Below, one piece after another: positions 5,697 through 51,169 of a stretch of DNA of 64,000 nt. The stretch comes from Escherichia coli (lineage in GTDB: Bacteria; Pseudomonadota; Gammaproteobacteria; Enterobacterales; Enterobacteriaceae), in the NCBI RefSeq assembly GCF_024700885.2, contig NZ_CP117016.1, one strand, 5' to 3'. A model generated the notes under the pieces. The model was given only the letters and a program-made list of their open reading frames with translations, did no database searches and had not been told where the DNA came from. Each line of letters opens with the position of its first letter. Within the stretch, counting starts at the first letter, position 1. The position numbers and the translations under genes are program-made.

Positions 5697-7352
5697 TTAC
5701 TTTTGTAACCACCAGACAGCCTCAAAAGGCCGTAAAGTCATGGCGCAGGGTTGTGGTGAGGCTTCTTCGTAGTTATGCATCACAAGCTGCCAGTTGCCGC
5801 GCATTTGCCCTAGTTGCCAGGGTTGGATCTCACGGCTAAGGTTGGCAATGACCAACAAGGTTTGCCCCTTCCATTCACGGCGATAGCACCACAATACAGG
5901 GCTGTTTGGCAGCAGATCCTGGTAATCGCCCCATGTCAGAACGGCTTCTTGCTTACGCAGTGCGATTAACTTTTGGTAGGTGTAAAACACCGAGGACTCA
6001 TCGGTCAGCGCGGCTTCTACGTTGATTTGTTGATAGTTATCGCCTAGGCCAATCCACGGTTCGCCAGCCGTAAACCCGGCATTATCGCCGTTGGTCCATT
6101 GCATGGGTGTGCGACTGTTGTCACGGGATTTACTGGCGAGGATTGCCAATAACTCGTCGGCATCACGACCATCGTTGCGCAGCTCGGCAAACATATTGAG
6201 GCTCTCCACGTCGCGATAGTCAGTAATGCGCGTGAAATGCGGGTTGGTCATGCCAATCTCTTCGCCCTGGTAGATATACGGCGTTCCCTGCATGCCATGC
6301 AGCACCATCGCCAGCATTTTTGCCGCAGGCACGCGGTATTCACCTTCATCACCAAAGCGAGAAACAATGCGCGGCTGATCGTGGTTACACCAGAACAAGG
6401 CATTCCATGCCACGTTGTGCATTCCTTGTTGCCAGTGGCGGAACAATGTTTTCAACGCTACAAAGTCAGGTTTAGCCAGCGTCCATTTTTCACCACCGGG
6501 ATAATCGACTTTCAGGTGATGAAAATTAAAGGTCATCGACAATTCACTGCCTGTCAGTGCCGCGTATCGCTGGCAATGCTCAAGGCTGGTGGAGGACATT
6601 TCACCTACGGTCATTAACCCGCGTGGCGTAAACACATCGCGGTTCATCTCGTGCAAAAACTCGTGTGCTCGTGGCCCGTCGGTGTAGAAGCGACGCCCGT
6701 CGCCATCCAGGTCATCAGGGAAACGCGGGTCTTTGGAGATCAGATTCACCACATCCAGGCGCAACCCGTCGACCCCACGATCGGCCCAGAACTCACAGAC
6801 TTTTTTCAGCTCTGCGCGTACCGCTGGATTCTCCCAGTTGAGATCCGCCTGTTCTGGTGCAAAGAGATGCAAATAGTACTGTTCGCTTTCCGCATGCCAG
6901 CGCCACGCACTACCGCCAAATTTTGAACGCCAGTTGTTCGGTGGCGTTTCTGGTTCTCCATCGCGCCAGATATAAAACTGGCGGTAAGGGCTTGCTTTGT
7001 TCAGCGCCTCGCGAAACCAGGCATGTTGGGTAGAGGTATGGTTAAACACCATATCGAGAATGATACGAATCCCGCGCGATTTTGCCTGTGTCACCAGTTC
7101 GTCAAAATCGTCCAGCGTGCCGTAGGTGGGATCAATCGCTGTATAGTTCGCTACGTCGTAACCGTTATCGACCTGGGGAGAGACATAAAAGGGGGTTAGC
7201 CAGATGGCATCAACGCCCAGTTTATGCAGATAGTCCAGGCGCTGGATAACGCCACGTAAATCGCCGGTGCCGCTACCCGTGGTGTCCTGAAAACTCTTTG
7301 GATAAATCTGGTAGATAACGCCGTTTTGCCACCAGTGGGGAAGATTAGTCAT
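5697..7352 (-). CDS. treC: Trehalose-6-phosphate hydrolase
   Basis: GH13 alpha-glucosidase sequence; start placed at MTNLPHWWQNGVIYQIY (internal Met of the longer ORF 5697..7499). Confidence 0.92.
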   Translation of the reverse strand: MTNLPHWWQNGVIYQIYPKSFQDTTGSGTGDLRGVIQRLDYLHKLGVDAIWLTPFYVSPQVDNGYDVANYTAIDPTYGTLDDFDELVTQAKSRGIRIILDMVFNHTSTQHAWFREALNKASPYRQFYIWRDGEPETPPNNWRSKFGGSAWRWHAESEQYYLHLFAPEQADLNWENPAVRAELKKVCEFWADRGVDGLRLDVVNLISKDPRFPDDLDGDGRRFYTDGPRAHEFLHEMNRDVFTPRGLMTVGEMSSTSLEHCQRYAALTGSELSMTFNFHHLKVDYPGGEKWTLAKPDFVALKTLFRHWQQGMHNVAWNALFWCNHDQPRIVSRFGDEGEYRVPAAKMLAMVLHGMQGTPYIYQGEEIGMTNPHFTRITDYRDVESLNMFAELRNDGRDADELLAILASKSRDNSRTPMQWTNGDNAGFTAGEPWIGLGDNYQQINVEAALTDESSVFYTYQKLIALRKQEAVLTWGDYQDLLPNSPVLWCYRREWKGQTLLVIANLSREIQPWQLGQMRGNWQLVMHNYEEASPQPCAMTLRPFEAVWWLQK

Positions 7353-7401
7353 TACGTTATTCCTGCAAATGCGAGGGGGCGCAATTGCGCCCCGAAGAAA
7401 A

Positions 7402-8823
7402 TTAAACAATGTCCAGCGTGCCCAGGCGGTATTTCCGCTGATAGATAAACGAGGTGAGTACAATCGGGATGATGATGGCGATAGCCATTGCCAGCGCAAA
7501 CACCTGCCAGTAGCTCGGTTGAATCGAGAGAATTCCCGGCAGGCCGCCTACGCCAATGCCATTCGCCATAACGCCGTTCAGGCCGCATAGCAATCCTGCC
7601 AGACCAGAACCAATCATCGCGCACAGCATCGGGAAGCGATATTTCAGGTTGATGCCGTACATAGCAGGCTCAGTGACTCCAAGCCAGGCGGAGATAGCGG
7701 CAGGCACGGAGATCTCGCGTTCATTGTGCTTGCGGCTGGAAATGATAATGCCTATCACGGCGGAACCCTGAGCGATATTCGACAGCGCAATCAGCGGCCA
7801 CACTGGCGTACCACCCATGCTTTGAATCATCTGCAAATCAATAGCAAGCGTGGTCTGATGTACGCCGGTGATCACCAGCGGGGCGTACAGGAAGCCAAAC
7901 AATGCCGCGCCAATCGGAGCAAAGCTGCCGGTCATCAGGTGACGTACCGCAAAGGCAACGCCATCGCCAATCATGCGACCAAACGGACCAATCAGCGCAT
8001 GGGCGAGGAACACCGCGAGGATCAGCGAACAAACGGGCACCACCACCAGATAGAGGTAATCCGGCACGATGCGCTTAAGACGAGTTTCAATAACGCCCAG
8101 CGCCAGCCCGGCTAACAGTGCCGGGATCACCTGCGCCTGATAGCCCACTTTGGCGATGCTGAACATGCCAAAGTCCCACACTTCCGGCAGCTGCTGCCCG
8201 AGCAGATAAGCGTTCATCAGCTGTGGAGAAACCAGCGTTACGCCAAGCACGATACCAAGGATCGGCGTGCCGCCCATTTTTTTCACCGCTGACCAGCAAA
8301 TCCCGACCGGCAGGTAGAAGAAGATCGCTTCACCGATCAACCACAGAAAATCGTAGATCGTTTGCAGGGAAGGGTACATTTGCGCCAGCGTTTGACCGTT
8401 GCTCATGGGCAAATCGCCGATCACATTGCGAAAACCGAGGATCAAACCGCCGCTAATCAACGCGGGCAGCAACGGGAAGAAAATCTCCGCGAAATGAGAG
8501 ATCAACTGCTCATGCCATTTCATATTCTGCCGGGCGGCTTTTTTTACCTGCTCTTTATCAACCTGCGCCTGTCCGGTTGACGCTATCAGTGCTTGATAGT
8601 AATCACCCACGTTGGTGCCAATCACCACCTGAAATTGCCCGGCATTGGTGAAACAGCCTTTCACCATGGGGAGTTGCTCAATTTCTTTCGGTCTGGCATT
8701 GGCCGGTTGGTTGAGGACAAAGCGCAGACGAGTAATACAGTGGCTCACCGTCGCAATATTGCCGCGCCCGCCGACCAGTTCAATCAACCGATCGATATCC
8801 GTTTGGTTTATTTTGCTCATCAT
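7402..8823 (-). CDS. treB: PTS trehalose-specific EIIBC component
   Basis: 473-aa product; N-terminal EIIB cysteine motif (SHCITRLRF) followed by membrane EIIC domain. Confidence 0.92.
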   Translation of the reverse strand: MMSKINQTDIDRLIELVGGRGNIATVSHCITRLRFVLNQPANARPKEIEQLPMVKGCFTNAGQFQVVIGTNVGDYYQALIASTGQAQVDKEQVKKAARQNMKWHEQLISHFAEIFFPLLPALISGGLILGFRNVIGDLPMSNGQTLAQMYPSLQTIYDFLWLIGEAIFFYLPVGICWSAVKKMGGTPILGIVLGVTLVSPQLMNAYLLGQQLPEVWDFGMFSIAKVGYQAQVIPALLAGLALGVIETRLKRIVPDYLYLVVVPVCSLILAVFLAHALIGPFGRMIGDGVAFAVRHLMTGSFAPIGAALFGFLYAPLVITGVHQTTLAIDLQMIQSMGGTPVWPLIALSNIAQGSAVIGIIISSRKHNEREISVPAAISAWLGVTEPAMYGINLKYRFPMLCAMIGSGLAGLLCGLNGVMANGIGVGGLPGILSIQPSYWQVFALAMAIAIIIPIVLTSFIYQRKYRLGTLDIV

Positions 8824-8941
8824 AAAGCCCCATGGCAGATGACATTTTTGGTTGGCTGCAGAATATATTGCGCTGAAAAATTTAAAAACGGGAACGTTCC
8901 CGAAACGCAGCGAAGATCACAATTTATCGTTCAGGAAACGA

Positions 8942-9889
8942 TCAGGACAGGGTGGCGGGAATGATGATTTGTTGCGGTTCGCTGCGCCCGGTTACCTGCG
9001 CGATCAACTGGCAGGCCGCCTGGCGTCCAGCTTCGGCGTAACCGGGATCTACGGTGACGATCTCCGGATGGAGGAATTTCATTAACGGCGTATTACCGAC
9101 GCTCGCCAGTTGCAAGGTGTCGATGCGTTGCTCTTGCAGGTATTTACTTGCGCCAAGTGCCAGCGTGTCGGTTGCGCACAGTAACGCGGTAGTTTCAGGC
9201 GTAATCACTTTTGCTACGTTCTCATAGCCTTGCTTCATAGCAAGCCCTGGCAGAGCGGCAACGGGATGCAATTTATGCGCTTTGCAGAACGCCAGGTAGG
9301 CTTCGTGACGTCGCTTACCGGTCGTCACGTCACTGTGCGGCACGCCGAGATAACTGATATTACGATGTCCCTGGTCATACAGCCGTTGCATCAGGATCTT
9401 GATTGCCCCTTCGTCGTCATAACAGACCGAAGCAAAGCCTTTTGCGTCACGCGCCAGCAGAACCAGCGATGACTGCCAGTGGGCTAACATTTCTTCTGTT
9501 ATGCCGGTAAAACCGAACAGCACTACGCCGTCGATATTACGCCGTTTCAGCACCCCCAAATGTTCGGCAACTAATTGCGGGGAAAACTGACTTTCCATCA
9601 TGATTGGGTCGTAACCTTGTTCATAGAACGCTGGCAGCATGGTTTGAACGGCGAGATTTTCTGACAACGAATCCAGACGGGTAACAATGATGGCGACCAC
9701 TTTATCGCTTTGACCACGCATAGCGCGCGCAGAGCGGGAAGGGGAAAATCCATGCTGATTCATCACTGCTTCAACACGCTCGCGCGTGCGCTGGCTCACG
9801 CCGCTTTCGTTATTCAGCACCCGGGAAACCGTAGATTTCCCCACGCCGCTTAAGCGCGCGATGTCTTTGATGGTCAGCCGATTTTGCAT
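8942..9889 (-). CDS. treR: Trehalose operon repressor (LacI family)
   Basis: 315-aa product with N-terminal LacI-type HTH (LTIKDIARLSGVGKSTVSRVLNN). Confidence 0.9.
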   Translation of the reverse strand: MQNRLTIKDIARLSGVGKSTVSRVLNNESGVSQRTRERVEAVMNQHGFSPSRSARAMRGQSDKVVAIIVTRLDSLSENLAVQTMLPAFYEQGYDPIMMESQFSPQLVAEHLGVLKRRNIDGVVLFGFTGITEEMLAHWQSSLVLLARDAKGFASVCYDDEGAIKILMQRLYDQGHRNISYLGVPHSDVTTGKRRHEAYLAFCKAHKLHPVAALPGLAMKQGYENVAKVITPETTALLCATDTLALGASKYLQEQRIDTLQLASVGNTPLMKFLHPEIVTVDPGYAEAGRQAACQLIAQVTGRSEPQQIIIPATLS

Positions 9890-10003
9890 CCTGTTGTCCC
9901 GTAACGTGTTGTTTAATTATTTGAGCCTAACTTTACCCGTGCATTCAGCAATGGGTAAAGTCTGGTTTATCGTTGGTTTAGTTGCCAGCAGGTATTATAT
10001 CGC

Positions 10004-10267
10004 CATAGATGCTACGAATATTATTGGATTCTCCTTATTATTTGCGGCGCTTTTTTCACTTACCGGAGGTTATATGGAACCTGATCCCACGCCTCTCCCT
10101 CGACGGAGATTAAAACTTTTCCGGTAAGCCCGTCTTTTCACGGCGTTACCGGATGCGTAAGGCCGTGACGTTTTAACGTCCCTGCTCAGCTTTATTACCT
10201 TCAGGTAAGGCTTCGCCACGCCTGAAGACATTTCTGTACTGTTTCAGACAGTGCGGAGGGACTCCTT
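10004..10267 (+). promoter_or_regulatory. mgtA 5' leader (Mg2+/proline-responsive attenuation region)
   Basis: Long untranslated leader carrying the proline-rich mgtL peptide ORF immediately upstream of mgtA; extent approximate. Confidence 0.5.
10074..10127 (+). CDS. mgtL: mgtA leader peptide
   Basis: 17-codon ORF encoding [17 protein letters not shown] inside the mgtA leader. Confidence 0.75.
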
Positions 10268-35418: not shown

Positions 35419-35503
35419 GCCGAAGTGGCGAAATCGGTAGACGCAGTTGATTCAAAATCAACCGTAGAAATACGTGCCGGTTCGAGTCCGGCCTTCGGCA
35501 CCA
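35419..35503 (+). tRNA. leuX: tRNA-Leu (anticodon CAA)
   Basis: 85-nt sequence GCCGAAGTGGCGAAATCGGTAGACGCAGTTGATTCAAAATCAACC...GGTTCGAGTCCGGCCTTCGGCACCA with long variable arm and encoded CCA. Confidence 0.9.
35479..35503 (+). repeat. Island junction (attL-like): leuX 3' end, repeated at 41077-41101
   Basis: 25-bp GGTTCGAGTCCGGCCTTCGGCACCA present twice in direct orientation. Confidence 0.75.
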
Positions 35504-38480: not shown

Positions 38481-39326
38481 ATGGCTTACACAGCAACTGT
38501 TATCCCTGTAATGATTGCTTCTCCTGGTGATGTCGCTGAAGAGAGACAAGTCATTCGTGAAATGATCCATGAGTGGAATGATATAAATTCAGCTCGTTCA
38601 AAAGTAATGTTGACACCAATTGGATGGGAAACTCATACATCACCCGAATTAGGAGTTAGGCCTCAGAAGTTGATTAATCAAAGATTATTAGTAGATTGTG
38701 ATTTATTAATCGGTGTGTTTTGGACTCGTCTAGGCTCACCGACTGGGAACGAGGCCAGCGGAACAGTCGAAGAAATCCACCGTCATTTGAATGCGGGAAA
38801 ACCGGCAATGATTTACTTTTCCTCAAAGCCTGTTGCCCCTGAAAGCCTTGATAGAGAACAATATGAGTCTCTTAAATTGTTCAAAACTGAGTGCATGCAA
38901 AAGGGATTGATAGAGTCTTTTAATGACTTATCTGATTTCAAAGACAAAGTCCGTAGGCAACTTTCGATAATTATTTCTAGTAGCCCTTATTTGTCTTCTC
39001 TTATATCTACCATTAACAATTCTCCTGATGCGAATACAAGTCAATCTTTGCCAGAAAGTAATTTGTCCGCCGATGCACTCAGTTTGCTGAAATTGGCATG
39101 TGTCGATGATAGCGGAACAATTTATGTGATAAGGCATTTAGGTGGCACGGATATTCAAGCGGGAAATCAATCCTTTGGTGGAAGTTCGGCTAGAGAGGTA
39201 GCCCGTTGGGAGGGCGCACTTAACGAACTGTTATCCTTTGATTATGTGATTGAAAGAGGGGCAAAAGGACAAATGTATTATGTTACTCATAAAGGCTGGA
39301 CATTTCTTGAATCTTTAAATGAATAA
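38481..39326 (+). CDS. Hypothetical protein with DUF4062/TIR-like-looking N-terminal domain, Ser-rich linker and small C-terminal domain
   Basis: 281-aa ORF 14 bp after the recombinase gene; N-terminal pattern VIPVMIASPGDVAEERQ ... CDLLIGVFWTRLGSP ... GKPAMIYF; domain call is by eye only. Confidence 0.55.
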   Translation: MAYTATVIPVMIASPGDVAEERQVIREMIHEWNDINSARSKVMLTPIGWETHTSPELGVRPQKLINQRLLVDCDLLIGVFWTRLGSPTGNEASGTVEEIHRHLNAGKPAMIYFSSKPVAPESLDREQYESLKLFKTECMQKGLIESFNDLSDFKDKVRRQLSIIISSSPYLSSLISTINNSPDANTSQSLPESNLSADALSLLKLACVDDSGTIYVIRHLGGTDIQAGNQSFGGSSAREVARWEGALNELLSFDYVIERGAKGQMYYVTHKGWTFLESLNE

Positions 39327-44113: not shown

Positions 44114-44878
44114 TCAGATATATTTTAATTTTTCCGATAGTTCTTGACACGCATCAAGAACCAAAGTTGAATAATATTCAATTTTTTCTTTAGGTATCTG
44201 AATTTCCACGCCACTAATGCTGATAGCTGCAATTACTTCACGAGTCTGATTAAATACCGGAGCAGCAATACAATAAATTCCCGGTGAATCCTCTGCGTTA
44301 TCAAAAGCCCATCCACGTTCACGAATACGTGCAAATTCCTGTATTAGATCAGATTTACGAGTGATAGTTGTTTGCGTAAATCGTGGCAACGTTTCCTCAG
44401 GCAACAATGTGTCAATGACGTCTTGAGGTAACCACGCACATAAAGCCTTACCAACTCCAGAACTATGGAGTGGCAACTTCTTGCCTACCCACGTTCTGAT
44501 GCCAATTGGTTGTGTACTCTCGAGTTTCAAAATATAGATTGGAGCGACTTCATCGAGAATGCCCAGATGGCAGATAAGATCAGTACTGTCTCTCAGTTTT
44601 TCTAGAACCGGCCTCGCTACCTTACTGATGTCAAACTGCTCCAGAGATCGATTCCCCCATTCATACAATTTCAGCCCAAGAAAAAAACGCCCTCTTTCCT
44701 GACGTAACAGATGATGTTCGACAAGGGCATTCAGTAAAGATGATGTGCTGCTTTTTGGCAGATCCAGATCCTGCTGGATCTGGCTGAAGGTGGCGCCTGG
44801 AGAGCTAAAAAGGTAATTGCAGACTCTGACAGTTTTATCGAGTGCTGGTACCGATGTTCTGATGGTTTGATTATTCAT
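44114..44878 (-). CDS. IclR-family transcriptional regulator
   Basis: N-terminal HTH region and C-terminal effector domain; start taken at MNNQTIRTSVPALDKT; divergent from the catabolic operon. Confidence 0.75.
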   Translation of the reverse strand: MNNQTIRTSVPALDKTVRVCNYLFSSPGATFSQIQQDLDLPKSSTSSLLNALVEHHLLRQERGRFFLGLKLYEWGNRSLEQFDISKVARPVLEKLRDSTDLICHLGILDEVAPIYILKLESTQPIGIRTWVGKKLPLHSSGVGKALCAWLPQDVIDTLLPEETLPRFTQTTITRKSDLIQEFARIRERGWAFDNAEDSPGIYCIAAPVFNQTREVIAAISISGVEIQIPKEKIEYYSTLVLDACQELSEKLKYI

Positions 44879-45117
44879 AAAAAAATATGATTCCTTACAA
44901 TACTGAATAGTATACCCCATTCCCCCTTGATGCGCAGCGGCGCTTAGCACACATATTATACATGGCCTCCGCGTACCGGCATGCCTCTATAAACCTGACT
45001 TATTTCACACTTTTCATATCGCATTGTAAAAACATTTGACATGCAAAACCTGAATTTGATTCACTTTATTCAGCATAAAGAACTTATGTTCCATATACAG
45101 AACTTAGTGAGAGTGAT

Positions 45118-46017
45118 ATGTTGACAGCGTTTAGAGGTATTTTCCCGCCAGTTCCTACAATTGTTGACGCACAAGGGAAACTAGATAAGGCTGGCATGGC
45201 CCGGATGATCGACCATGTTTTAGAAAATGGTGCAAACGGGATGTTGATCCTTGGCAGTGGGGGAGAATTCTCACAATTTTCTTCCCAGCAACGAAAAGAG
45301 ATAGCTGCATTTTGCTTAAGTCATGTAGATGGCAAAGTGCCTGTTCTGGTGGGGATCGCCTGCGCGGGAACTGCAGAAACTATTGATTTAGGACATCATG
45401 CACAGGAGCACGGAGCTGATGGTGTGATGGTGGTGAATCCGTATTATGCAAAACTCAGCGATGATGCCCGGTTTATGCATTACAAATCTATTGCCGATTC
45501 ACTTAAAATTCCAGTGTTTCTCTATAACTTTCCTGATCTGACCGGTCAGGATATTGGGCTTGAGGTCATTACCCGGCTGGCCCGGGAAGTTCCAAATATC
45601 GTGGGTATCAAGGATACCATCGATAATATCAGCCATACCCGGGAAGTCATCAACCGTGTACATGCTTTTCGTCCGGATTTCATTATATTCAGCGGATATG
45701 ACGAATATATGCTGGATACCCTGTTACTGGGCGGCCATGGTGGTATTCCGGCGACATTCAATTTTGCTCCAAATATCACACGTGGTATTTATCAGGCCGT
45801 TATGGAAAATGATCTTGATAAAGCACGTTCTTTTCAGCAACAACTGGCAAAACTGTCTCCGTTATACACACTGGAGCAGCCTTTCTTTGGCGTGATAAAA
45901 ACTGCCATCAAACTGAGTGGACTGGACATATCTACTGCAGTTATGGCACCGGCTCTTCCGCTCAGTGATGACAAGGTCGCCAGGGTGAAAGCCATTCTGG
46001 AACACATTCACCAGTGA
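45118..46017 (+). CDS. DapA/NAL-family aldolase or dehydratase (Schiff-base class I aldolase fold)
   Basis: 299-aa product with conserved GIKDT lysine motif. Confidence 0.8.
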   Translation: MLTAFRGIFPPVPTIVDAQGKLDKAGMARMIDHVLENGANGMLILGSGGEFSQFSSQQRKEIAAFCLSHVDGKVPVLVGIACAGTAETIDLGHHAQEHGADGVMVVNPYYAKLSDDARFMHYKSIADSLKIPVFLYNFPDLTGQDIGLEVITRLAREVPNIVGIKDTIDNISHTREVINRVHAFRPDFIIFSGYDEYMLDTLLLGGHGGIPATFNFAPNITRGIYQAVMENDLDKARSFQQQLAKLSPLYTLEQPFFGVIKTAIKLSGLDISTAVMAPALPLSDDKVARVKAILEHIHQ

Positions 46018-46033
46018 TTACGAGGATCGTAAG

Positions 46034-47551
46034 ATGAATAAGACTCCGATACTCAAATTAAATAACTCGGATGATGTCGTTATTGCCAGGACAGAACTTC
46101 CTGCCGGAAGCTGGCTGGAATCTGAAAGTATGGAAACACGTGACCTTATTCCGGCAGGGCACAAAATTGCTCTTCGGGATATTCCGGCCGGCAGTGCCGT
46201 TAAACGCTATGGACAGATAATCGGTTTTGCGACCCGTGACATCCGACAGGGCGAACATATTCATGTGCATAATCTCGGTATGGGGAGTTTTGAGCGTGAT
46301 TATGCCTGGGGGATAGACAGTCATCTTCCGGAAAAGGATGTTCATCAGGATACCTTTATGGGGATCCGCAGAAAAGACGGACGGGTGGCAACCCGTAATT
46401 ATATTGGTGTACTGAGTTCTGTAAACTGTAGTGCAACCGTAGTAAGGGCAATTGAAGATCATTTCCGTACCCGTGGTCTCAGTGATTACCCTAATGTGGA
46501 TGGTATTGTTGCCCTCCCACAAAGTTTTGGTTGTGCCTTTGGCTCTGACAGCGAAATGATGAAAGTCATGCGGAGGACAATGGCAGGCTATGCCACGCAC
46601 GCGAACTTTGCCGGGATCGTGATCGTGGGACTGGGATGTGAATCATTCCAGATTAAGGACATGATGAATGCCCACGGATTACATGAAAGTCCTGTATTCC
46701 ATACAATGACTATTCAGGAAAGCGGCGGAACACGTAACGCTATAGAAAAAGGTATTTCCTTCATTCTCGACATGCTCCCGGAAGCCAACAATGTCAAACG
46801 AGAACCAGTTCCGGTATCAGAAATCATTCTGGCTCTTGAGTGTGGCGGCTCTGATAGCTATTCAGGAATTTCCGCTAATCCGGCTCTCGGGTACGCAGTT
46901 GATCGCCTGGTTCGCCAGGGAGGAACGGCTATTCTGTCGGAAACATCGGAAATTTATGGAGCAGAACACCTTCTGACACGCCGTGCCATTAGTCGCGAAG
47001 TTGGCGAGAAACTAATCCGCAGAATTAAGTGGTGGGAAGAGTACTGTAAACGTACAGGGAGTGAAATGAATAACAACCCTTCTGCAGGTAATAAAGCGGG
47101 GGGACTGACCACTGTTCTGGAGAAATCGCTGGGAGGGATAGCAAAAGCTGGTACAACCAGCTTAATGGATGTATATGAATATGCTGAACCGGTGACAGCA
47201 AAAGGGCTTGTCTTTATGGATACCCCCGGATATGACCCGATGGCAGTAACCGGACAAATCGCCGGAGGAGCCAACCTGCTGTGTTTTACCACGGGCAGGG
47301 GATCTGCCTTTGGCGCAAAACCCACTCCTTGTCTGAAACTGTCAACCAATAACGCACTATGGCAACGGCAGCGCGACGACATGGATTTAAACTGTGGCAC
47401 GATTGTTGATGGCGAAGAAACAATAGAACAGGTTGGAGAACGTATTTATCAGAGAATTATTGAGCTGGCTTCAGGTCATCGTAGTCGAAGTGAAGAGCTG
47501 GGTTATGGGAGCCAGGAATTCGTTCCCTGGATAATGAACTCAATCATGTAA
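46034..47551 (+). CDS. UxaA/GarD-family sugar-acid dehydratase (SAF domain plus altronate-hydrolase-like domain)
   Basis: 505-aa product; N-terminal SAF-like region and conserved Cys-containing C-terminal domain. Confidence 0.75.
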   Translation: MNKTPILKLNNSDDVVIARTELPAGSWLESESMETRDLIPAGHKIALRDIPAGSAVKRYGQIIGFATRDIRQGEHIHVHNLGMGSFERDYAWGIDSHLPEKDVHQDTFMGIRRKDGRVATRNYIGVLSSVNCSATVVRAIEDHFRTRGLSDYPNVDGIVALPQSFGCAFGSDSEMMKVMRRTMAGYATHANFAGIVIVGLGCESFQIKDMMNAHGLHESPVFHTMTIQESGGTRNAIEKGISFILDMLPEANNVKREPVPVSEIILALECGGSDSYSGISANPALGYAVDRLVRQGGTAILSETSEIYGAEHLLTRRAISREVGEKLIRRIKWWEEYCKRTGSEMNNNPSAGNKAGGLTTVLEKSLGGIAKAGTTSLMDVYEYAEPVTAKGLVFMDTPGYDPMAVTGQIAGGANLLCFTTGRGSAFGAKPTPCLKLSTNNALWQRQRDDMDLNCGTIVDGEETIEQVGERIYQRIIELASGHRSRSEELGYGSQEFVPWIMNSIM

Positions 47552-47628
47552 TAACTACAGGCATAATTTGTTTTGCCCGGAAATAAGGAAACAAACTGAA
47601 TCCTGTTTTTGATAATTAGAGGTGAATA

Positions 47629-48636
47629 ATGGAACGTAAACCAGTACTGGGCATTTTTTTAGGTGAAGCTGCCGGCATTGGACCTGAACTGGTTGCCAAA
47701 GTCGTAGCTGATGGTACTGTCTATAAATATTGCAGACCTGTTCTGATTGGCGATGCCCGGGTACTTGCTCTTGGGCAAGAGATTGCTGGTGTGGATTTTC
47801 AGTGGGATGTCATCAGTGATCCCACTGAAGCTGACTGGACTACGGGAAATGTACCATTACTTGATTTGAAAAATTTTAATCCCGAAAAACTAACTATGGG
47901 CACCATTGACACTGCCTCAGGTTATGCAACAGGAGAATCACTGGTAACCTGTATGTCATTACTTAAATCAGGTAAAATTGACGGTTTTGTTTTCGCTCCA
48001 CTCAATAAAGAAGCGTTCAAGAAGGGGGGCTGGGATATTGAGGACGAACATTATCTCTTTGCTGAGCAGTTAGGATACTTGGATAAACCACGTGGCCTGT
48101 TGAATGTCCTTGATGACCTCTGGGTTTTTCGCGTGACGGGACATATTCCATTCAAAGATATTGCCAGCCATATTACACCAGAAAATGTCAGTCGTTCGAT
48201 TCAGTTATGCTACGATACATTAAAGATGGCGGGTTATAAATCACCTCGCATTGCAGTTGCGGCACTAAATCCTCATGCTGGTGATGGTGGTACATGTGGC
48301 ACTGAGGAAATAGATGTACTTATCCCTGTAATTGAAATGTTTCGGGAGAAAGGAATGGATATGTACGGTCCTGTCCCAGGGGACACCATCTTTATTCATG
48401 CATTTAATCATGAATATGATGCGATCGTTACCCTGTTCCATGATCAAGGACAAATTGCCACCAAGCTTCATTCCTTTGATGTGGGCATAACTGTAGCCGC
48501 CGGGCTTCCATTTGCTATAACAACACCGGAACATGGCACTGCATTTGATATTGCAGGTAAGGGGATCGCAAAAACAATGGCTACAGAGAGGGCTATTGCT
48601 GTTGCAGCCAGAATGGCATCAACAACACAGAAATAA
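47629..48636 (+). CDS. PdxA-family NAD-dependent dehydrogenase (4-hydroxythreonine-4-phosphate dehydrogenase-like)
   Basis: 335-aa product with GEAAGIGPE N-terminal motif and metal-binding His residues. Confidence 0.75.
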   Translation: MERKPVLGIFLGEAAGIGPELVAKVVADGTVYKYCRPVLIGDARVLALGQEIAGVDFQWDVISDPTEADWTTGNVPLLDLKNFNPEKLTMGTIDTASGYATGESLVTCMSLLKSGKIDGFVFAPLNKEAFKKGGWDIEDEHYLFAEQLGYLDKPRGLLNVLDDLWVFRVTGHIPFKDIASHITPENVSRSIQLCYDTLKMAGYKSPRIAVAALNPHAGDGGTCGTEEIDVLIPVIEMFREKGMDMYGPVPGDTIFIHAFNHEYDAIVTLFHDQGQIATKLHSFDVGITVAAGLPFAITTPEHGTAFDIAGKGIAKTMATERAIAVAARMASTTQK

Positions 48637-48937
48637 TTTTTATAATAGCAGATAATAATACAATATATAACTTATATTGAGGGATATAGATATTATCTGC
48701 ATTAAAATGAGCTTTATAAAATGTCTTTATAAAGTTATCGCAAGTAATAGTGACTGTTTAAAATAGCAATAGACTATTTTATCTTCTAAGGAATACGATA
48801 CAGTCTATTGTTGGACTTATAGGAGCACTACTTCTCGGAACTATTCTTTGTTAGTAATTTCGCAATCAATATCCAGAAAGTAAAATCAAATTTTAACATA
48901 TTTAGTCTAATAGGTGTATTATTAAAGGAGAATAATT

Positions 48938-50203
48938 ATGTCCGCCTATGAGAAAGCAACAAATATAAGATGGAGAATATTTTTTGTACTTTTCCTTCTT
49001 GTTGTTGTCAGTATGATTGATCGAGCCTCAATATCTATAGCTATGCCTACTATTGCTAAAGATCTGGGATTAAGCGATACGATGCAAGGACTAATCTTGA
49101 GTGGTTTTTTCTGGACTTATGCATGCATGCAAATACCGGGTGGATTTTTAGCCGATAAATTTGGGGCAAGAATTATATTAGCATGCTCGGCAATACTTTG
49201 GGGAACTGCAGAAGCACTATTAGGGTTATGCCCAACAGGCTTTGCCTTACTTGCTGCTAATCTATTGCTTGGTGCAAGTGAAGCACCTGTATTTCCTTCT
49301 GGAGCCAGACTGAATGCAATCTGGCTTAACAAAAATGAAAGAGCTCGGGGAGCAACACTAATGGATGCAGGAGGGCCATTTGGTGCTGCAATTGGAGGAA
49401 TATTAGTAGCTGAAATGATGTTATATTTTACATCATGGCGGATTACCTTCATTATTTGTGGCATCGCAGCTATAACTCTGGGGCTAATCGCATACTGGGT
49501 TATTCGCGACAGGCCTGAAGATTCGCCAAGAGTGAATAACAAAGAACTGGGAATCATTAATCTCGATCGTGTTGTACAAGATACAGTAGAAGAAAATAAT
49601 GATCCCTTATTAAAAGTGATTCCACTACGTTCCTTCATCGGCATGCTTCTAGGCCGTTGTTCATGGGCTATGTGTTTCTTTGGTTTATTAACATGGGGGC
49701 CGGGATATCTTACACGAGCATTAAACCTGGATTTAAAAGCCGTTGGGTTTGCCACAATGATCGTTTTCTGTGCAGGTGGTTGTGGTAGCCTTTGTGGAGG
49801 ATGGCTCGCAGATAAACTTGCAAGTAAAGGGTTCGGACAGGCTAGATCATGTAAATTTCTATTAACAGTGTCAGGTATCTGCACGCTTATATCATTTGCT
49901 TTATTACCAAGTATTCCTGACGTAAAAACATCGATTATTTTACTGTCCTGCGCTGCATTTGTTTTAATGTGGGGAAGTATGTACTGGACATTCCCTCCTT
50001 TACTGGCACCCCGTTCTCGCGTAGCTACCGTCGGAGGAATGATGAATATGGCGGGAAGTGTTGGGGGCATTTGCATTCCTTTATTAGTAGGACTTATTTT
50101 AGATGTAACAAATTCATTCAATCCTGTACTCTATTTCTTTGCTGGTTGCGCAGTGATATTTATTTTAATGACAAACATTATTGATTTACGACACGTGCGA
50201 TAG
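48938..50203 (+). CDS. MFS transporter, anion:cation symporter-like (hexuronate/aldarate type)
   Basis: 421-aa, about 12 TM segments; AT-rich codon usage. Confidence 0.75.
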   Translation: MSAYEKATNIRWRIFFVLFLLVVVSMIDRASISIAMPTIAKDLGLSDTMQGLILSGFFWTYACMQIPGGFLADKFGARIILACSAILWGTAEALLGLCPTGFALLAANLLLGASEAPVFPSGARLNAIWLNKNERARGATLMDAGGPFGAAIGGILVAEMMLYFTSWRITFIICGIAAITLGLIAYWVIRDRPEDSPRVNNKELGIINLDRVVQDTVEENNDPLLKVIPLRSFIGMLLGRCSWAMCFFGLLTWGPGYLTRALNLDLKAVGFATMIVFCAGGCGSLCGGWLADKLASKGFGQARSCKFLLTVSGICTLISFALLPSIPDVKTSIILLSCAAFVLMWGSMYWTFPPLLAPRSRVATVGGMMNMAGSVGGICIPLLVGLILDVTNSFNPVLYFFAGCAVIFILMTNIIDLRHVR

Positions 50204-50212
50204 GAGATAAAT

Positions 50213-51169
50213 ATGAACATTAAGCCACTAAATTTATATGATGGTCCTGTAATCGATGCTCATCATCATTTCTGGGATCCGATAAAAAACGATCATCCTT
50301 GGTTGAAACCGGATGTTTTAATTCCTTTTAGATATGGTGATTATACAGCCATTAAGAGAAAATATTATCCAGAAGATTATTTTGCAGATGTAGGTGATAT
50401 TAATATTGTTGAAACATGTTATATGGAAACTGAATGGAATCCAACGGATCCATGTGGTGAAAGCGATTTCATTACATCAGTGGCAAAAATGACAGGTTAT
50501 CCAAATGCTGTTGTCGGTCAGGCTTGGTTAAACCATGATGATATAGATTCTGTATTAAAAATGCAGAGCTCATATAAGCTAATGCGAAGCATCAGACATA
50601 AACCTGAAGGCCCGGATAAACCAGAAGATGTTGGACAGTATACCACACTGATGAGTGATGAAAAATGGCGATATGGCTATTCGTTACTTTCGAAATATAA
50701 TTTAATGTTTGACCTTCAGACCCAGTGGTGGAACCTGCATGAAGCAGTAAAACTTGCAAATGATTTTCCAGATACAGTCATAATACTTAACCATACAGGA
50801 CTTCCTGCACAACGATCTGCTGAAGGGCTTGCCGGTTGGCATTCAGCAATGGCTTCTTTAGCTGAGTGTCAAAATGTTATGGTCAAAATTTCGGGAATAG
50901 GTTTAAAAGGAATCCCATGGACAATGGAGAATAATTTATGGATTATATCTGAAACCTTATCAATGTTTGGTCCTGACAGGGTAATGTTTGCAAGCAATTT
51001 CCCCGTAGATAGCCTTTGTGGCAGCTTTACTAATATATTCCATGGTTTTATGACAGTGTGTGAAATGAAAGGATATTCGCATGCCGCTCAGCGGAAGATG
51101 TTTCATGACAATTGTAAGAGAATTTATCGAACAATCCCACCACATAAATTGAAAGAAAAGCATAGCTAA
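50213..51169 (+). CDS. Amidohydrolase-2 family metal-dependent hydrolase (putative lactonase)
   Basis: 318-aa product with N-terminal HHHFWD metal-binding motif. Confidence 0.7.
   Translation: MNIKPLNLYDGPVIDAHHHFWDPIKNDHPWLKPDVLIPFRYGDYTAIKRKYYPEDYFADVGDINIVETCYMETEWNPTDPCGESDFITSVAKMTGYPNAVVGQAWLNHDDIDSVLKMQSSYKLMRSIRHKPEGPDKPEDVGQYTTLMSDEKWRYGYSLLSKYNLMFDLQTQWWNLHEAVKLANDFPDTVIILNHTGLPAQRSAEGLAGWHSAMASLAECQNVMVKISGIGLKGIPWTMENNLWIISETLSMFGPDRVMFASNFPVDSLCGSFTNIFHGFMTVCEMKGYSHAAQRKMFHDNCKRIYRTIPPHKLKEKHS

What the first reader, a model, noticed from the sequence alone, without database searches (positions are those of the whole stretch)
44114..51169. Accessory sugar-acid catabolic cluster with a bipartite composition
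A divergent IclR regulator controls an apparent operon of a DapA-family aldolase/dehydratase, a UxaA/GarD-family dehydratase, a PdxA-family dehydrogenase, an MFS acid-sugar transporter and an amidohydrolase-2 enzyme (a family that includes sugar lactonases). The combination suggests an oxidative uronate/aldarate or related acid-sugar pathway, but the PdxA-like dehydrogenase is not part of the textbook routes. The last two genes and the 300-bp spacer before them are much more AT-rich than the first three, suggesting the cluster was assembled from two sources.
Basis: inference. Interest (0 to 1): 0.5.

Follow-up and report, generated by a model that had tools for sequence, protein, structure and literature searches.

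The report
Two-module sugar-acid operon, odd PdxA enzyme
An accessory E. coli gene cluster for breaking down an unidentified sugar acid is a fusion of two separately inherited modules, one of which carries an uncharacterised PdxA-type dehydrogenase, also found in gut anaerobes, that has lost residues conserved in the phosphate-dependent relatives.

Summary
The six genes are real, intact and under strong purifying selection (dN/dS 0.03-0.07 against Salmonella). They lie in the leuX island of E. coli: the full cluster is in 55 of 5426 complete genomes, and about 394 genomes, including ST131, carry a truncated variant.

The composition step is real (GC3 0.43 for dhdps/uxaA, 0.34 for pdxA, 0.29-0.30 for MFS/amidohydrolase). 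The "two sources" idea is partly right. IclR-DHDPS-UxaA (module A) matches a stand-alone Serratia cluster (54-72% identity). PdxA-MFS-amidohydrolase (module B) matches gut Desulfovibrio clusters (68-79%), whose DHDPS, UxaA and IclR are only 27-49% identical to the window's. The boundary is uxaA|pdxA. The fusion is old, because the same step and a uniform ~80% nt divergence are seen in Salmonella and Citrobacter. The AT-rich spacer holds the last ~20 codons of a deleted GntP permease gene.

The best reading is a non-phosphorylative sugar-acid pathway: lactonase, UxaA-type dehydratase, then YagE-like aldolase giving pyruvate plus an aldehyde. A PdxA-clade enzyme lacking three residues conserved in PdxA/PdxA2, with no kinase nearby, is proposed as the front end. 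The substrate is unknown and no characterised pathway matches. This is a new variant of a known kind and of moderate interest.

The parts
44114..44878 (-). IclR-family regulator, divergent from the operon (254 aa by the RefSeq start; the longest ORF runs to 44950)
   Evidence: Pfam IclR_C 2.3e-50 and HTH_IclR. Best NCBIfam hits BhcR/KdgR are far below cut-off. RefSeq WP_001064798.1. A divergent IclR gene is also present in the Salmonella, Desulfovibrio, C. difficile and Fusobacterium versions.
45080..45091 (.). Candidate operator: palindrome GAACTTATGTTC (GAAC-N4-GTTC), 27 nt upstream of the dhdps ATG
   Evidence: The arms are invariant and the 4-nt centre varies among E. coli, Salmonella, C. 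werkmanii and C. braakii (alignment A3; sequence checked). Its function is inferred, not tested.
45118..46017 (+). DHDPS/NAL-family class I aldolase, YagE-like (module A)
   Evidence: Pfam DHDPS 8.8e-80. Best solved relative is E. coli YagE at 5.5e-87, against ~1e-43 for true DapA. Below the DapA, NanA and KdgD equivalog cut-offs. Motifs GSGGE46, Y136 (YNFP) and K165 (GIKD) are present.
46034..47551 (+). UxaA/GarD-superfamily sugar-acid dehydratase, fused SAF+GD_AH form (module A)
   Evidence: Pfam SAF, GD_AH_second, GD_AH_C. GarD 6u7l 2.3e-99. TIGR03248 scores 404 bits against a cut-off of 731. Hundreds of relatives at 62-66%, a few labelled arabinonate dehydratase by JGI. The same WP accession is named D-arabinonate dehydratase in some RefSeq records. 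Four Cys (132, 167, 202, 270) are conserved in all cluster types.
47629..48636 (+). PdxA-family NAD-dependent dehydrogenase of a distinct clade (module B)
   Evidence: Pfam PdxA 2.3e-85. Below every PdxA/PdxA2 equivalog cut-off. Metal-ligand His and K274-equivalent are kept, but GHTE is replaced by DEHY, N283 by T, and R292 by I, throughout the clade at >=58% identity.
48213..48636 (.). Mosaic 3' part of pdxA: recombination zone between the window-type and ST131-type clusters
   Evidence: Mismatch to ST131 JJ1887 rises from ~0.3% (up to 47560) to 2-4% (47775-48213), then 20-27% (48219-48418). Homology ends at the stop codon.
48637..48937 (.). AT-rich spacer (GC 0.25) between pdxA and the MFS gene
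   Evidence: Not conserved in Salmonella or in ST131. The sigma-70-like matches inside it are no more frequent than in shuffled sequence.
48795..48857 (+). Relic of the last ~20 codons of a GntP-family permease gene (TIQSIVGLIGALLLGTILC**)
   Evidence: 73% nt identity over 60 nt to the 3' end of the C. braakii gntP gene, E 4e-6. Alignment A2 ends at the same TAA stop as the C. braakii and C. youngae genes. Sequence; C. braakii translation. C. braakii carries an intact gntP at exactly this position.
48938..50203 (+). MFS transporter, anion:cation symporter (D-galactonate-transporter) subfamily (module B)
   Evidence: Pfam MFS_1 1.6e-53; TIGR00893 scores 239 bits, below cut-off. 69-71% identical to the Desulfovibrio-type cluster MFS; only 29% to the ST131 MFS and 36% to the Serratia MFS.
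50213..51169 (+). Amidohydro_2 hydrolase, probable lactonase (module B)
   Evidence: Pfam Amidohydro_2 1.8e-36. The only NCBIfam hit is L-fucono-1,5-lactonase at 79 bits against a cut-off of 400. Weak match to 4dlf and 6uvz. 78-79% identical to the Desulfovibrio-type protein. N-terminal DAHHHFW motif.
35419..35503 (+). tRNA-Leu(CAA) leuX, anchor of the genomic island that carries the cluster
   Evidence: ARAGORN. RefSeq context shows an integrase fragment and IS66/IS4/IS21/IS110 fragments on both sides of the cluster.

Best explanation
The cluster is a horizontally acquired, IclR-controlled operon for a non-phosphorylative sugar-acid catabolic pathway, built from two modules that also exist separately.

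Module A (IclR, YagE-like DHDPS aldolase, UxaA-type dehydratase) dehydrates a (2S,3R)-configured polyhydroxy acid to its 2-keto-3-deoxy acid and cleaves that to pyruvate plus a short aldehyde. Candidate substrates are of the D-arabinonate, L-fuconate, L-galactonate, D-altronate or D-threonate type.

Module B (anion-type MFS transporter, formerly also a GntP permease; Amidohydro_2 lactonase; PdxA-clade dehydrogenase) is proposed to be the front end. It imports the acid or acid-lactone and opens the ring. The PdxA-like enzyme then oxidises a hydroxyl beta to the carboxylate of a non-phosphorylated substrate, with or without decarboxylation. Its product either becomes the dehydratase substrate or goes directly to central metabolism.

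Shown here: the family assignments, the modular architecture and its separate histories, intactness and purifying selection, replacement of residues conserved in PdxA/PdxA2, and absence of a kinase from the cluster. Inferred: the order of steps, the lactonase role, regulation by IclR through the GAAC-N4-GTTC palindrome, and every candidate substrate.
For: Families and best relatives. YagE (aldolase for 2-keto-3-deoxy sugar acids) is by far the closest solved relative of the DHDPS protein. UxaA-type enzymes dehydrate D-arabinonate, D-altronate, L-fuconate, L-galactonate and D-threonate, all of which share the C2/C3 configuration (PMC6336799; PMC10079672).

The C. jejuni fuc locus has the same frame: divergent IclR, DapA-like gene, UxaA, MFS and amidohydrolase (PMC6946681, PMC12566272).

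Module A alone: Serratia has IclR-DHDPS-UxaA-MFS-Fe-ADH; C. difficile and Fusobacterium have IclR|KdgT-UxaA-FAH-DHDPS. Module B alone: Megasphaera/Veillonellaceae have sigma54 activator|MFS-hydrolase-PdxA.

A+B fused in different gene orders and with non-homologous parts: enterics, Desulfovibrio, M. stantonii with Amidohydro_1 in place of Amidohydro_2.

PdxA clade signature. Purifying selection.
Against: No enzyme was assayed and no substrate is known. The PdxA step is placed by elimination and by the logic of module co-occurrence, not by direct evidence. Citrobacter youngae/portucalensis clusters lack the hydrolase, so the lactonase step is dispensable there. Module A works without PdxA in Serratia and C. 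difficile, so PdxA may serve a second substrate rather than feed the dehydratase. That T137, N283 and R292 are PdxA's annotated substrate-binding (probably phosphate-contacting) residues is recalled from database annotation, not verified here. MAFFT and HMMER place the GHT/DEH motif one residue apart. I could not compare the proteins directly with C. jejuni or Herbaspirillum sequences.
Confidence: 0.5

Rival explanations
1. Two parallel pathways under one regulator. Module B on its own converts a small non-phosphorylated 2,3-dihydroxy acid (for example a tetronate such as D-threonate or D-erythronate, released from its lactone) to dihydroxyacetone plus CO2. This would be a kinase-free version of the PdxA2 reaction. 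Module A separately degrades a related longer acid.
For: Module B occurs alone in Megasphaera/Veillonellaceae, and PdxA+GntP occurs alone in Superficieibacter. Module A occurs alone in Serratia, C. difficile and Fusobacterium. The closest characterised relatives of the PdxA-like protein are D-threonate-4-phosphate dehydrogenases (2hi1, 6e85). 3-oxo-tetronates decarboxylate to dihydroxyacetone (abstract and section list of PMC12994016).
Against: The two modules have been joined at least three times, in different gene orders and with non-homologous parts (fused versus split UxaA; Amidohydro_2 versus Amidohydro_1). This argues for functional coupling rather than chance adjacency. Megasphaera species also carry the split dehydratase, so 'module B alone' may not be truly alone.
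Confidence: 0.25
2. One reading: an oxidative uronate/aldarate pathway (aldarate or aldarolactone, GarD-like dehydratase, KdgD-like DHDPS enzyme), possibly with the PdxA-like enzyme decarboxylating an aldarate or reducing tartronate semialdehyde.
For: The only NCBIfam hit of the dehydratase is galactarate dehydratase, and GarD is its only full-length solved relative. ACS-type MFS transporters include the glucarate and galactarate carriers (established knowledge). An aldaro-lactone is both an anion and a lactone, which would explain having an anion transporter together with a lactonase (inference).
Against: The TIGR03248 score is 404 against a cut-off of 731. The KdgD models score 112-119 against cut-offs of 278-374. 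The DHDPS protein is much closer to the aldolase YagE. There is no uronate dehydrogenase or 2-oxoglutarate-semialdehyde dehydrogenase in any version of the cluster. The dehydratase is 62-66% identical to a large proteobacterial group that includes JGI-labelled arabinonate dehydratases, much closer than it is to GarD, which matches at 337 bits over about 490 residues. A downstream role for PdxA is hard to reconcile with module B standing alone.
Confidence: 0.12
3. The cluster is a decaying remnant with no current function in E. coli, carried along in an IS-ridden island.
For: IS and integrase fragments lie on both sides. The gntP gene is deleted. The ST131 version is truncated by a transposase fragment and lacks the amidohydrolase. 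The full cluster is in only 55 of 5426 genomes.
Against: All six ORFs are intact. The listed full-length copies are 100% identical, and all 55 are at least 99%. dN/dS against Salmonella is 0.03-0.07 for every gene. The candidate operator is conserved.
Confidence: 0.08

Closest known systems
Non-phosphorylative 'route 1' L-fucose/D-arabinose pathway locus of Campylobacter jejuni (cj0480c-cj0490); the corresponding Veillonella ratti pathway is recalled from memory
   Same: Divergent IclR-type repressor, DapA/DHDPS-family aldolase, UxaA-family dehydratase, an MFS transporter and an amidohydrolase in one operon. The logic is lactone, then acid, then 2-keto-3-deoxy acid, then pyruvate plus aldehyde (PMC6946681, PMC12566272, PMC11199699).
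   Different: Here there is no sugar 1-dehydrogenase (FucX), no FucP permease, no mutarotase and no aldehyde dehydrogenase. A PdxA-family dehydrogenase is present instead. The dehydratase is fused rather than split. Sequence orthology to the C. jejuni proteins could not be tested.
E. coli YagE/YjhH with YagF/YjhG (D-xylonate, then 2-keto-3-deoxy-D-pentonate, then pyruvate + glycolaldehyde), regulated by the IclR-type YagI/YjhI
   Same: YagE is the closest solved relative of the DHDPS-like protein (5.5e-87). An IclR-type regulator sits next to a dehydratase-aldolase pair. From memory, yjhIHG also lies in the leuX-associated element of K-12.
   Different: The dehydratase here belongs to the UxaA/GarD superfamily, not IlvD/Edd. 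The system also has an extra PdxA-like enzyme, a lactonase and an anion-type MFS.
UxaA/GarD-superfamily D-arabinonate dehydratase (Herbaspirillum huttiense C785_RS13685; Acidovorax ACAV_RS08155)
   Same: Same domain architecture and four conserved Cys. Some RefSeq records give this very protein that name. It is 62-66% identical to a large proteobacterial group, a few members of which JGI labels arabinonate dehydratase. One 63% relative shares the C-terminal LGAVM with the Acidovorax enzyme.
   Different: Identity to the characterised enzymes was not measured. In Herbaspirillum the partners are FAH-family and SDR enzymes (routes II and III), not a DHDPS aldolase plus PdxA.
PdxA2 / D-threonate-4-phosphate dehydrogenase with a DUF1537 kinase (also PdxA; TphB)
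   Same: Same Pfam family and fold. Metal-ligand histidines and the Lys274-equivalent are retained. Closest solved relatives: 4jqp 2.8e-64, 2hi1 1e-52, 6e85 2e-50.
   Different: No kinase gene is in the cluster. Three positions conserved in PdxA, PdxA2 and 4jqp (T137, N283, R292) are replaced by Y/x, T and I/V throughout the clade. All equivalog cut-offs are missed.

Membership tests
C. jejuni-type non-phosphorylative L-fucose/D-arabinose locus | Divergent IclR-type regulator next to the operon | tested here: met
   IclR on the minus strand at 44114-44878, 239 bp from dhdps. FucR precedent in PMC12566272.
C. jejuni-type non-phosphorylative L-fucose/D-arabinose locus | UxaA-family dehydratase + DHDPS-family aldolase + amidohydrolase + MFS | tested here: met
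   Met at Pfam family level only. Gene list of the fuc locus from PMC6946681 and PMC12566272.
C. jejuni-type non-phosphorylative L-fucose/D-arabinose locus | Sugar 1-dehydrogenase (FucX SDR), FucP permease, mutarotase, aldehyde dehydrogenase | tested here: not met
   None of these families is in the cluster or in its Salmonella, Citrobacter or Desulfovibrio versions.
C. jejuni-type non-phosphorylative L-fucose/D-arabinose locus | Sequence orthology to Cj0481-Cj0484 and Cj0487 | not testable with these tools
   The primer-based scan returned only chance hits. The Watanabe 2020 paper is not held.
PdxA / PdxA2 (4-phospho-hydroxy-acid dehydrogenases) | Pfam PF04166 and the metal-ligand histidines | tested here: met
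   2.3e-85. H172, H216 and H271 align with H166, H211 and H266.
PdxA / PdxA2 (4-phospho-hydroxy-acid dehydrogenases) | NCBIfam equivalog score | tested here: not met
   284 vs 470, 257 vs 290, 226 vs 378. PdxA2 model: 205 vs 583.
PdxA / PdxA2 (4-phospho-hydroxy-acid dehydrogenases) | Substrate/phosphate-binding residues T137, N283, R292 (E. coli numbering; roles recalled from database annotation) | tested here: not met
   Replaced by Y142, T288 and I297. PdxA, PdxA2 and 4jqp keep them. The replacement is conserved in all clade members at >=58% identity.
PdxA / PdxA2 (4-phospho-hydroxy-acid dehydrogenases) | Partner DUF1537-type kinase in the neighbourhood (PdxA2 systems) | tested here: not met
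   No kinase in any version of the cluster.
Galactarate dehydratase GarD / altronate dehydratase UxaA | SAF + GD_AH architecture and four conserved Cys | tested here: met
   C132, C167, C202, C270. Cys criterion from PMC6336799.
Galactarate dehydratase GarD / altronate dehydratase UxaA | Equivalog-level similarity | tested here: not met
   TIGR03248 scores 404 bits vs a cut-off of 731. No altronate dehydratase model is hit.
UxaA-type D-arabinonate dehydratase subfamily | High identity to C785_RS13685 / ACAV_RS08155 | tested here: inconclusive
   The RefSeq name appears in some records. 62-66% identity to a group that includes JGI-labelled arabinonate dehydratases. A shared C-terminal pentapeptide in a 63% relative.
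YagE/YjhH 2-keto-3-deoxy-sugar-acid aldolases | Closest relatives within the DHDPS family; Schiff-base Lys and Tyr motifs | tested here: met
   YagE 5.5e-87 vs DapA ~1e-43. K165 and Y136 present. Activity not tested.
Oxidative uronate/aldarate pathway (Udh, Gli/Gci, GarD/GudD, KdgD, KGSADH) | KdgD-type decarboxylating dehydratase, uronate dehydrogenase, 2-oxoglutarate-semialdehyde dehydrogenase | tested here: not met
   KdgD models score 112-119 bits vs cut-offs of 278-374. No Udh-like or ALDH gene in any version of the cluster.
cog3618-type sugar lactonases (L-fucono-1,5-lactonase, LigI) | Family membership and equivalog score | tested here: inconclusive
   Pfam Amidohydro_2 1.8e-36. The L-fucono-1,5-lactonase model is the only NCBIfam hit, at 79 bits vs a cut-off of 400. 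4dlf only 3e-8.

The most novel reading that the evidence does not exclude
The PdxA-like proteins of this clade (DEH-x / G[IV]T / [AP][IV]TT signature) are a new enzyme. They would be a kinase-independent, NAD-dependent and possibly decarboxylating dehydrogenase acting on a non-phosphorylated sugar acid freed by a lactonase. Together with the transporter and hydrolase they would form a portable 'front-end' module that plugs into UxaA/DHDPS back ends. That would define an unrecognised nutrient route shared by gut Desulfovibrio, Megasphaera and extraintestinal pathogenic E. coli lineages, for example for an aldaro-lactone or an ascorbate-derived acid.
Probability: 0.35. Interest if true: 0.65.

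Novelty: new variant of a known kind. Interest (0 to 1): 0.5.

Why it matters
If the model holds, it adds a new reaction type to the PdxA family and a new route of sugar-acid use in the gut. The route would be present in sulfidogenic Desulfovibrio, in Megasphaera, in non-enterica Salmonella, and in the ST648 and (truncated) ST131 lineages of E. coli. It is also a clean example of a catabolic operon built by joining two portable modules, with later loss of a redundant permease and later replacement of the right-hand end. Finally, it flags that the current annotations ('4-hydroxythreonine-4-phosphate dehydrogenase PdxA', 'altronate dehydratase', 'dihydrodipicolinate synthase') are almost certainly wrong for these proteins.

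Tried and rejected
- **BEN2908 'pdxA-like cluster' (PMC12928451):** a different cluster, with a DUF1537 kinase and PdxA2.
- **L-threonate 3-dehydrogenase (PMC12994016):** it is an SDR, not PdxA-type.
- **Literature searches:** no paper lists altronate hydrolase, DHDPS, PdxA and IclR together. A search for papers on PdxA residue roles found nothing usable.
- **C. jejuni comparison:** Watanabe 2020 (PMC6996899) is not held.
- **Herbaspirillum AraD sequence:** the supplement of PMC10079672 holds primers only.
- **Inverted-repeat search:** the tool found nothing in the iclR-dhdps spacer at seed 6. The palindrome was found by alignment instead.
- **Promoter and terminator scans:** not above shuffle expectation, so they say nothing about a separate promoter in the spacer.
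- **Rejected, SuyAB-type sulfolactate lyase reading of the split dehydratase:** all four Cys that PMC6336799 says SuyAB lacks are conserved.
- **Rejected, 'recent two-source assembly in E. coli':** divergence from Salmonella is uniform.

Full report
**1. Observation.**
The six ORFs exist at the stated coordinates and belong to the stated families:
- IclR, minus strand, 44114-44878 by the RefSeq start (the longest ORF runs to 44950)
- DHDPS family, 45118-46017
- UxaA/GarD family (SAF + GD_AH), 46034-47551
- PdxA family, 47629-48636
- an MFS transporter of the anion:cation-symporter / D-galactonate-transporter subfamily, 48938-50203
- Amidohydro_2, 50213-51169

None reaches an NCBIfam equivalog cut-off.

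The composition claim holds:

| Feature | GC3 (or GC) |
|---|---|
| dhdps | 0.43 |
| uxaA | 0.43 |
| pdxA | 0.34 |
| MFS | 0.30 |
| amidohydrolase | 0.29 |
| iclR | 0.36 |
| 301-bp spacer | GC 0.25 |
| core genes of the window | 0.56-0.69 |

A split between uxaA and pdxA gives z = 5.4.

**2. Where it sits.**
The window is E. coli. The region is 100% identical to ST648 and other strains. It lies in the island at tRNA-Leu leuX (window 35419-35503), between an integrase fragment and IS66/IS4 fragments on one side and IS100/IS66/IS110 on the other. The complete six-gene cluster is in 55 of 5426 complete E. coli genomes.

About 394 further genomes, including ST131, match only IclR through PdxA at 98.2%. 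In ST131 JJ1887, iclR, dhdps and uxaA are 99.6-100% identical to the window, but pdxA is only 91.8% identical. Mismatches rise from 47775 and reach 20-27% in 48219-48418, and homology ends at the stop codon. What follows is a different MFS gene (414 aa, 29% identity to the window's MFS) and a transposase fragment, with no amidohydrolase. So E. coli holds two right-hand ends on one left-hand end, with a recombination zone inside pdxA.

**3. The six genes are an old unit in enterics.**
Salmonella enterica (diarizonae and others) and Citrobacter werkmanii have the same six genes in the same order. E. coli and Salmonella differ uniformly: 78-81% nt, 86-91% aa, dN 0.056-0.081 for every gene. dN/dS is 0.03-0.07. 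The genes therefore co-diverged and are under purifying selection.

The GC3 step is also present in Salmonella and Citrobacter (about 0.57, 0.57, 0.50, 0.37-0.40, 0.40-0.41). It was inherited, not created in E. coli.

**4. The spacer.**
Citrobacter braakii has a seven-gene version with a GntP-family permease gene between pdxA and the MFS gene. Window 48795-48857 aligns with the 3' end of that gene and of the C. youngae gntP, and ends at the same TAA stop. It translates as TIQSIVGLIGALLLGTILC**, against VTVQSVVGLIGVLILGAIIGS* in C. braakii. Nucleotide identity is 73% over 60 nt, E 4e-6. The AT-rich 'spacer' is therefore largely the scar of a deleted permease gene. The Salmonella spacer is shorter and not homologous to it.

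**5. Two modules with separate histories.**
Gut Desulfovibrio contigs (L017, L024, L025) and a Firmicute-like contig (L013) carry IclR | DHDPS, MFS, Amidohydro_2, SAF small subunit, GD_AH large subunit, PdxA. Compared with these, the window's proteins fall into two groups:

| Protein | Identity to L017 / L013 |
|---|---|
| PdxA | 73 / 68% |
| MFS | 71 / 69% |
| Amidohydro_2 | 79 / 78% |
| DHDPS | 49 / 48% |
| UxaA (fused here, split there) | 38 / 38% |
| IclR | 27 / 31% |

Rates within enterics are similar for all six genes, so this gap reflects different ancestry.

The left half has its own relatives. Serratia carries IclR (54%), DHDPS (67%), fused UxaA (72%), an unrelated MFS (36%) and an Fe-ADH, with no PdxA and no hydrolase. 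C. youngae and C. portucalensis have Fe-ADH | DHDPS, UxaA, PdxA (82%), GntP, IclR.

The right half also stands alone. In Megasphaera and other Veillonellaceae, a sigma-54 activator precedes MFS, a metal hydrolase (Cyclase family or Amidohydro_1) and PdxA-like (61-64%).

Megasphaera stantonii has split UxaA, MFS, Amidohydro_1, PdxA and DHDPS together. C. difficile and Fusobacterium have IclR | KdgT, split UxaA (77-78% to Desulfovibrio's), an FAH-family enzyme and DHDPS, without PdxA.

So module A (dehydratase + aldolase) and module B (transporter + hydrolase + PdxA-like) occur separately, and they occur joined in several orders with non-homologous parts. The boundary, however, is uxaA|pdxA, the event is old, and the recurrence of the combination shows that the halves cooperate.

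**6. What the enzymes are.**
- **DHDPS-like protein.** It is closest to E. coli YagE, an aldolase for 2-keto-3-deoxy sugar acids (5.5e-87, against about 1e-43 for DapA). It has the Schiff-base Lys motif (K165) and Y136.
- **Dehydratase.** It has the four Cys conserved in the UxaA/GarD superfamily (PMC6336799). It is 62-66% identical to a large proteobacterial group, a few members of which JGI labels arabinonate dehydratase. It is much more distant from GarD, its only full-length solved relative (337 bits). Some RefSeq records name this same accession D-arabinonate dehydratase. Characterised members of that type accept D-arabinonate, D-altronate, L-fuconate, L-galactonate and D-threonate, which share the C2/C3 configuration.
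- **Amidohydrolase.** Its only NCBIfam hit is the L-fucono-1,5-lactonase model, far below cut-off.
- **PdxA-like protein.** It keeps the metal-ligand histidines, D247/D267 and K274. It replaces GHTE by DEHY, N283 by T and R292 by I. All clade members at 58% identity or more share this signature, while PdxA, PdxA2, 4jqp and five more distant relatives keep the canonical residues. From memory of database annotation, these positions are substrate-binding in E. coli PdxA. Together with the absence of any kinase gene, this suggests a non-phosphorylated substrate.

**7. Mechanism proposed.**
The compound is imported as an acid or acid-lactone (MFS; formerly also GntP) and the ring is opened (Amidohydro_2). 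The PdxA-like enzyme oxidises a hydroxyl beta to the carboxylate, with or without decarboxylation. The UxaA-type enzyme dehydrates the acid to a 2-keto-3-deoxy acid. The YagE-like aldolase cleaves that to pyruvate plus an aldehyde. In Citrobacter and Serratia, a linked Fe-ADH would reduce the aldehyde.

IclR probably represses through the conserved palindrome GAAC-N4-GTTC at 45080-45091.

The dehydratase-aldolase back end is well supported by homology and by the C. jejuni precedent. The position and chemistry of the PdxA step, and the substrate, are inference. The main rival is that the two modules run in parallel on related substrates, for example tetronate to dihydroxyacetone + CO2.

**8. 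Comparison and novelty.**
The closest known system is the non-phosphorylative route-1 L-fucose/D-arabinose locus of C. jejuni. It has a divergent IclR, DapA-like aldolase, UxaA, MFS and amidohydrolase. The present cluster lacks the sugar dehydrogenase, FucP, the mutarotase and the aldehyde dehydrogenase, and has a PdxA-family enzyme instead.

It is not a member of the GarD/KdgD oxidative aldarate route, nor of the PdxA2-kinase tetronate route. No paper in the held library describes the combination. I rate it a new variant of a known kind, with an uncharacterised PdxA subfamily as the interesting part.

**9. Limits.**
I had no assays. I made no direct comparison with C. jejuni, V. ratti or Herbaspirillum proteins. 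The roles of the PdxA residues are recalled, not verified. The origin of the ST131 right-hand end was not traced.

Noticed in passing
window 38481-39326 (+), within the ~35.9-40.6 kb block just after tRNA-Leu: A 281-aa ORF matches the PADLOC candidate defence protein PDC-S60 (E 1.3e-26), but only profile positions 5-169 of 906, and weakly matches DUF4062. It sits with a recombinase-family gene, an HTH gene and hypotheticals. This block is absent from ST131 JJ1887, where the integrase fragment follows the tRNA directly.
   Followed up: partly
window 19516-21387 (+): A 623-aa ORF with GC 0.33, far below its neighbours, with no Pfam or PADLOC match.
   Followed up: partly
L002 (ST131 JJ1887) 15630-18148; window 48213-48636: The ST131-type cluster has a mosaic pdxA 3' half. 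In the block equivalent to window 48219-48418, ST131 is closer to Salmonella (85-93%) than the window is (69-82%). It is followed by a different MFS gene (414 aa) of untraced origin.
   Followed up: partly
L049 (C. difficile) 6468-11086; L050 (Fusobacterium) 6675-11081: The same split dehydratase (77-78% identical to Desulfovibrio's) sits in an IclR | KdgT-UxaA-FAH-DHDPS cluster. In C. difficile, kdgT-uxaA'-uxaA fall more than 1000-fold with D. piger or its spent medium (PMC10174544). The authors attribute this to metal limitation. Removal of a shared inducer by Desulfovibrio is an untested alternative.
   Followed up: partly
window ~57.7-64 kb (L001 33770-42388): Further along the island lie a frameshifted LacI gene with a PTS ascorbate-type IIA/IIB/IIC set, and a DeoR / ribokinase / FucP-like permease / aldose-epimerase set that, from memory, resembles the deoxyribose (deoQKPX) operon of pathogenic E. 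coli.
   Followed up: no
L003 14342-20931 (Salmonella, downstream of the cluster): Next to the Salmonella copy lies another unassigned cluster: MFS, HMGL-like, a 720-aa Iso_dh + MoCF_biosynth fusion, RraA-like, DUF6282 and a LysR regulator.
   Followed up: no
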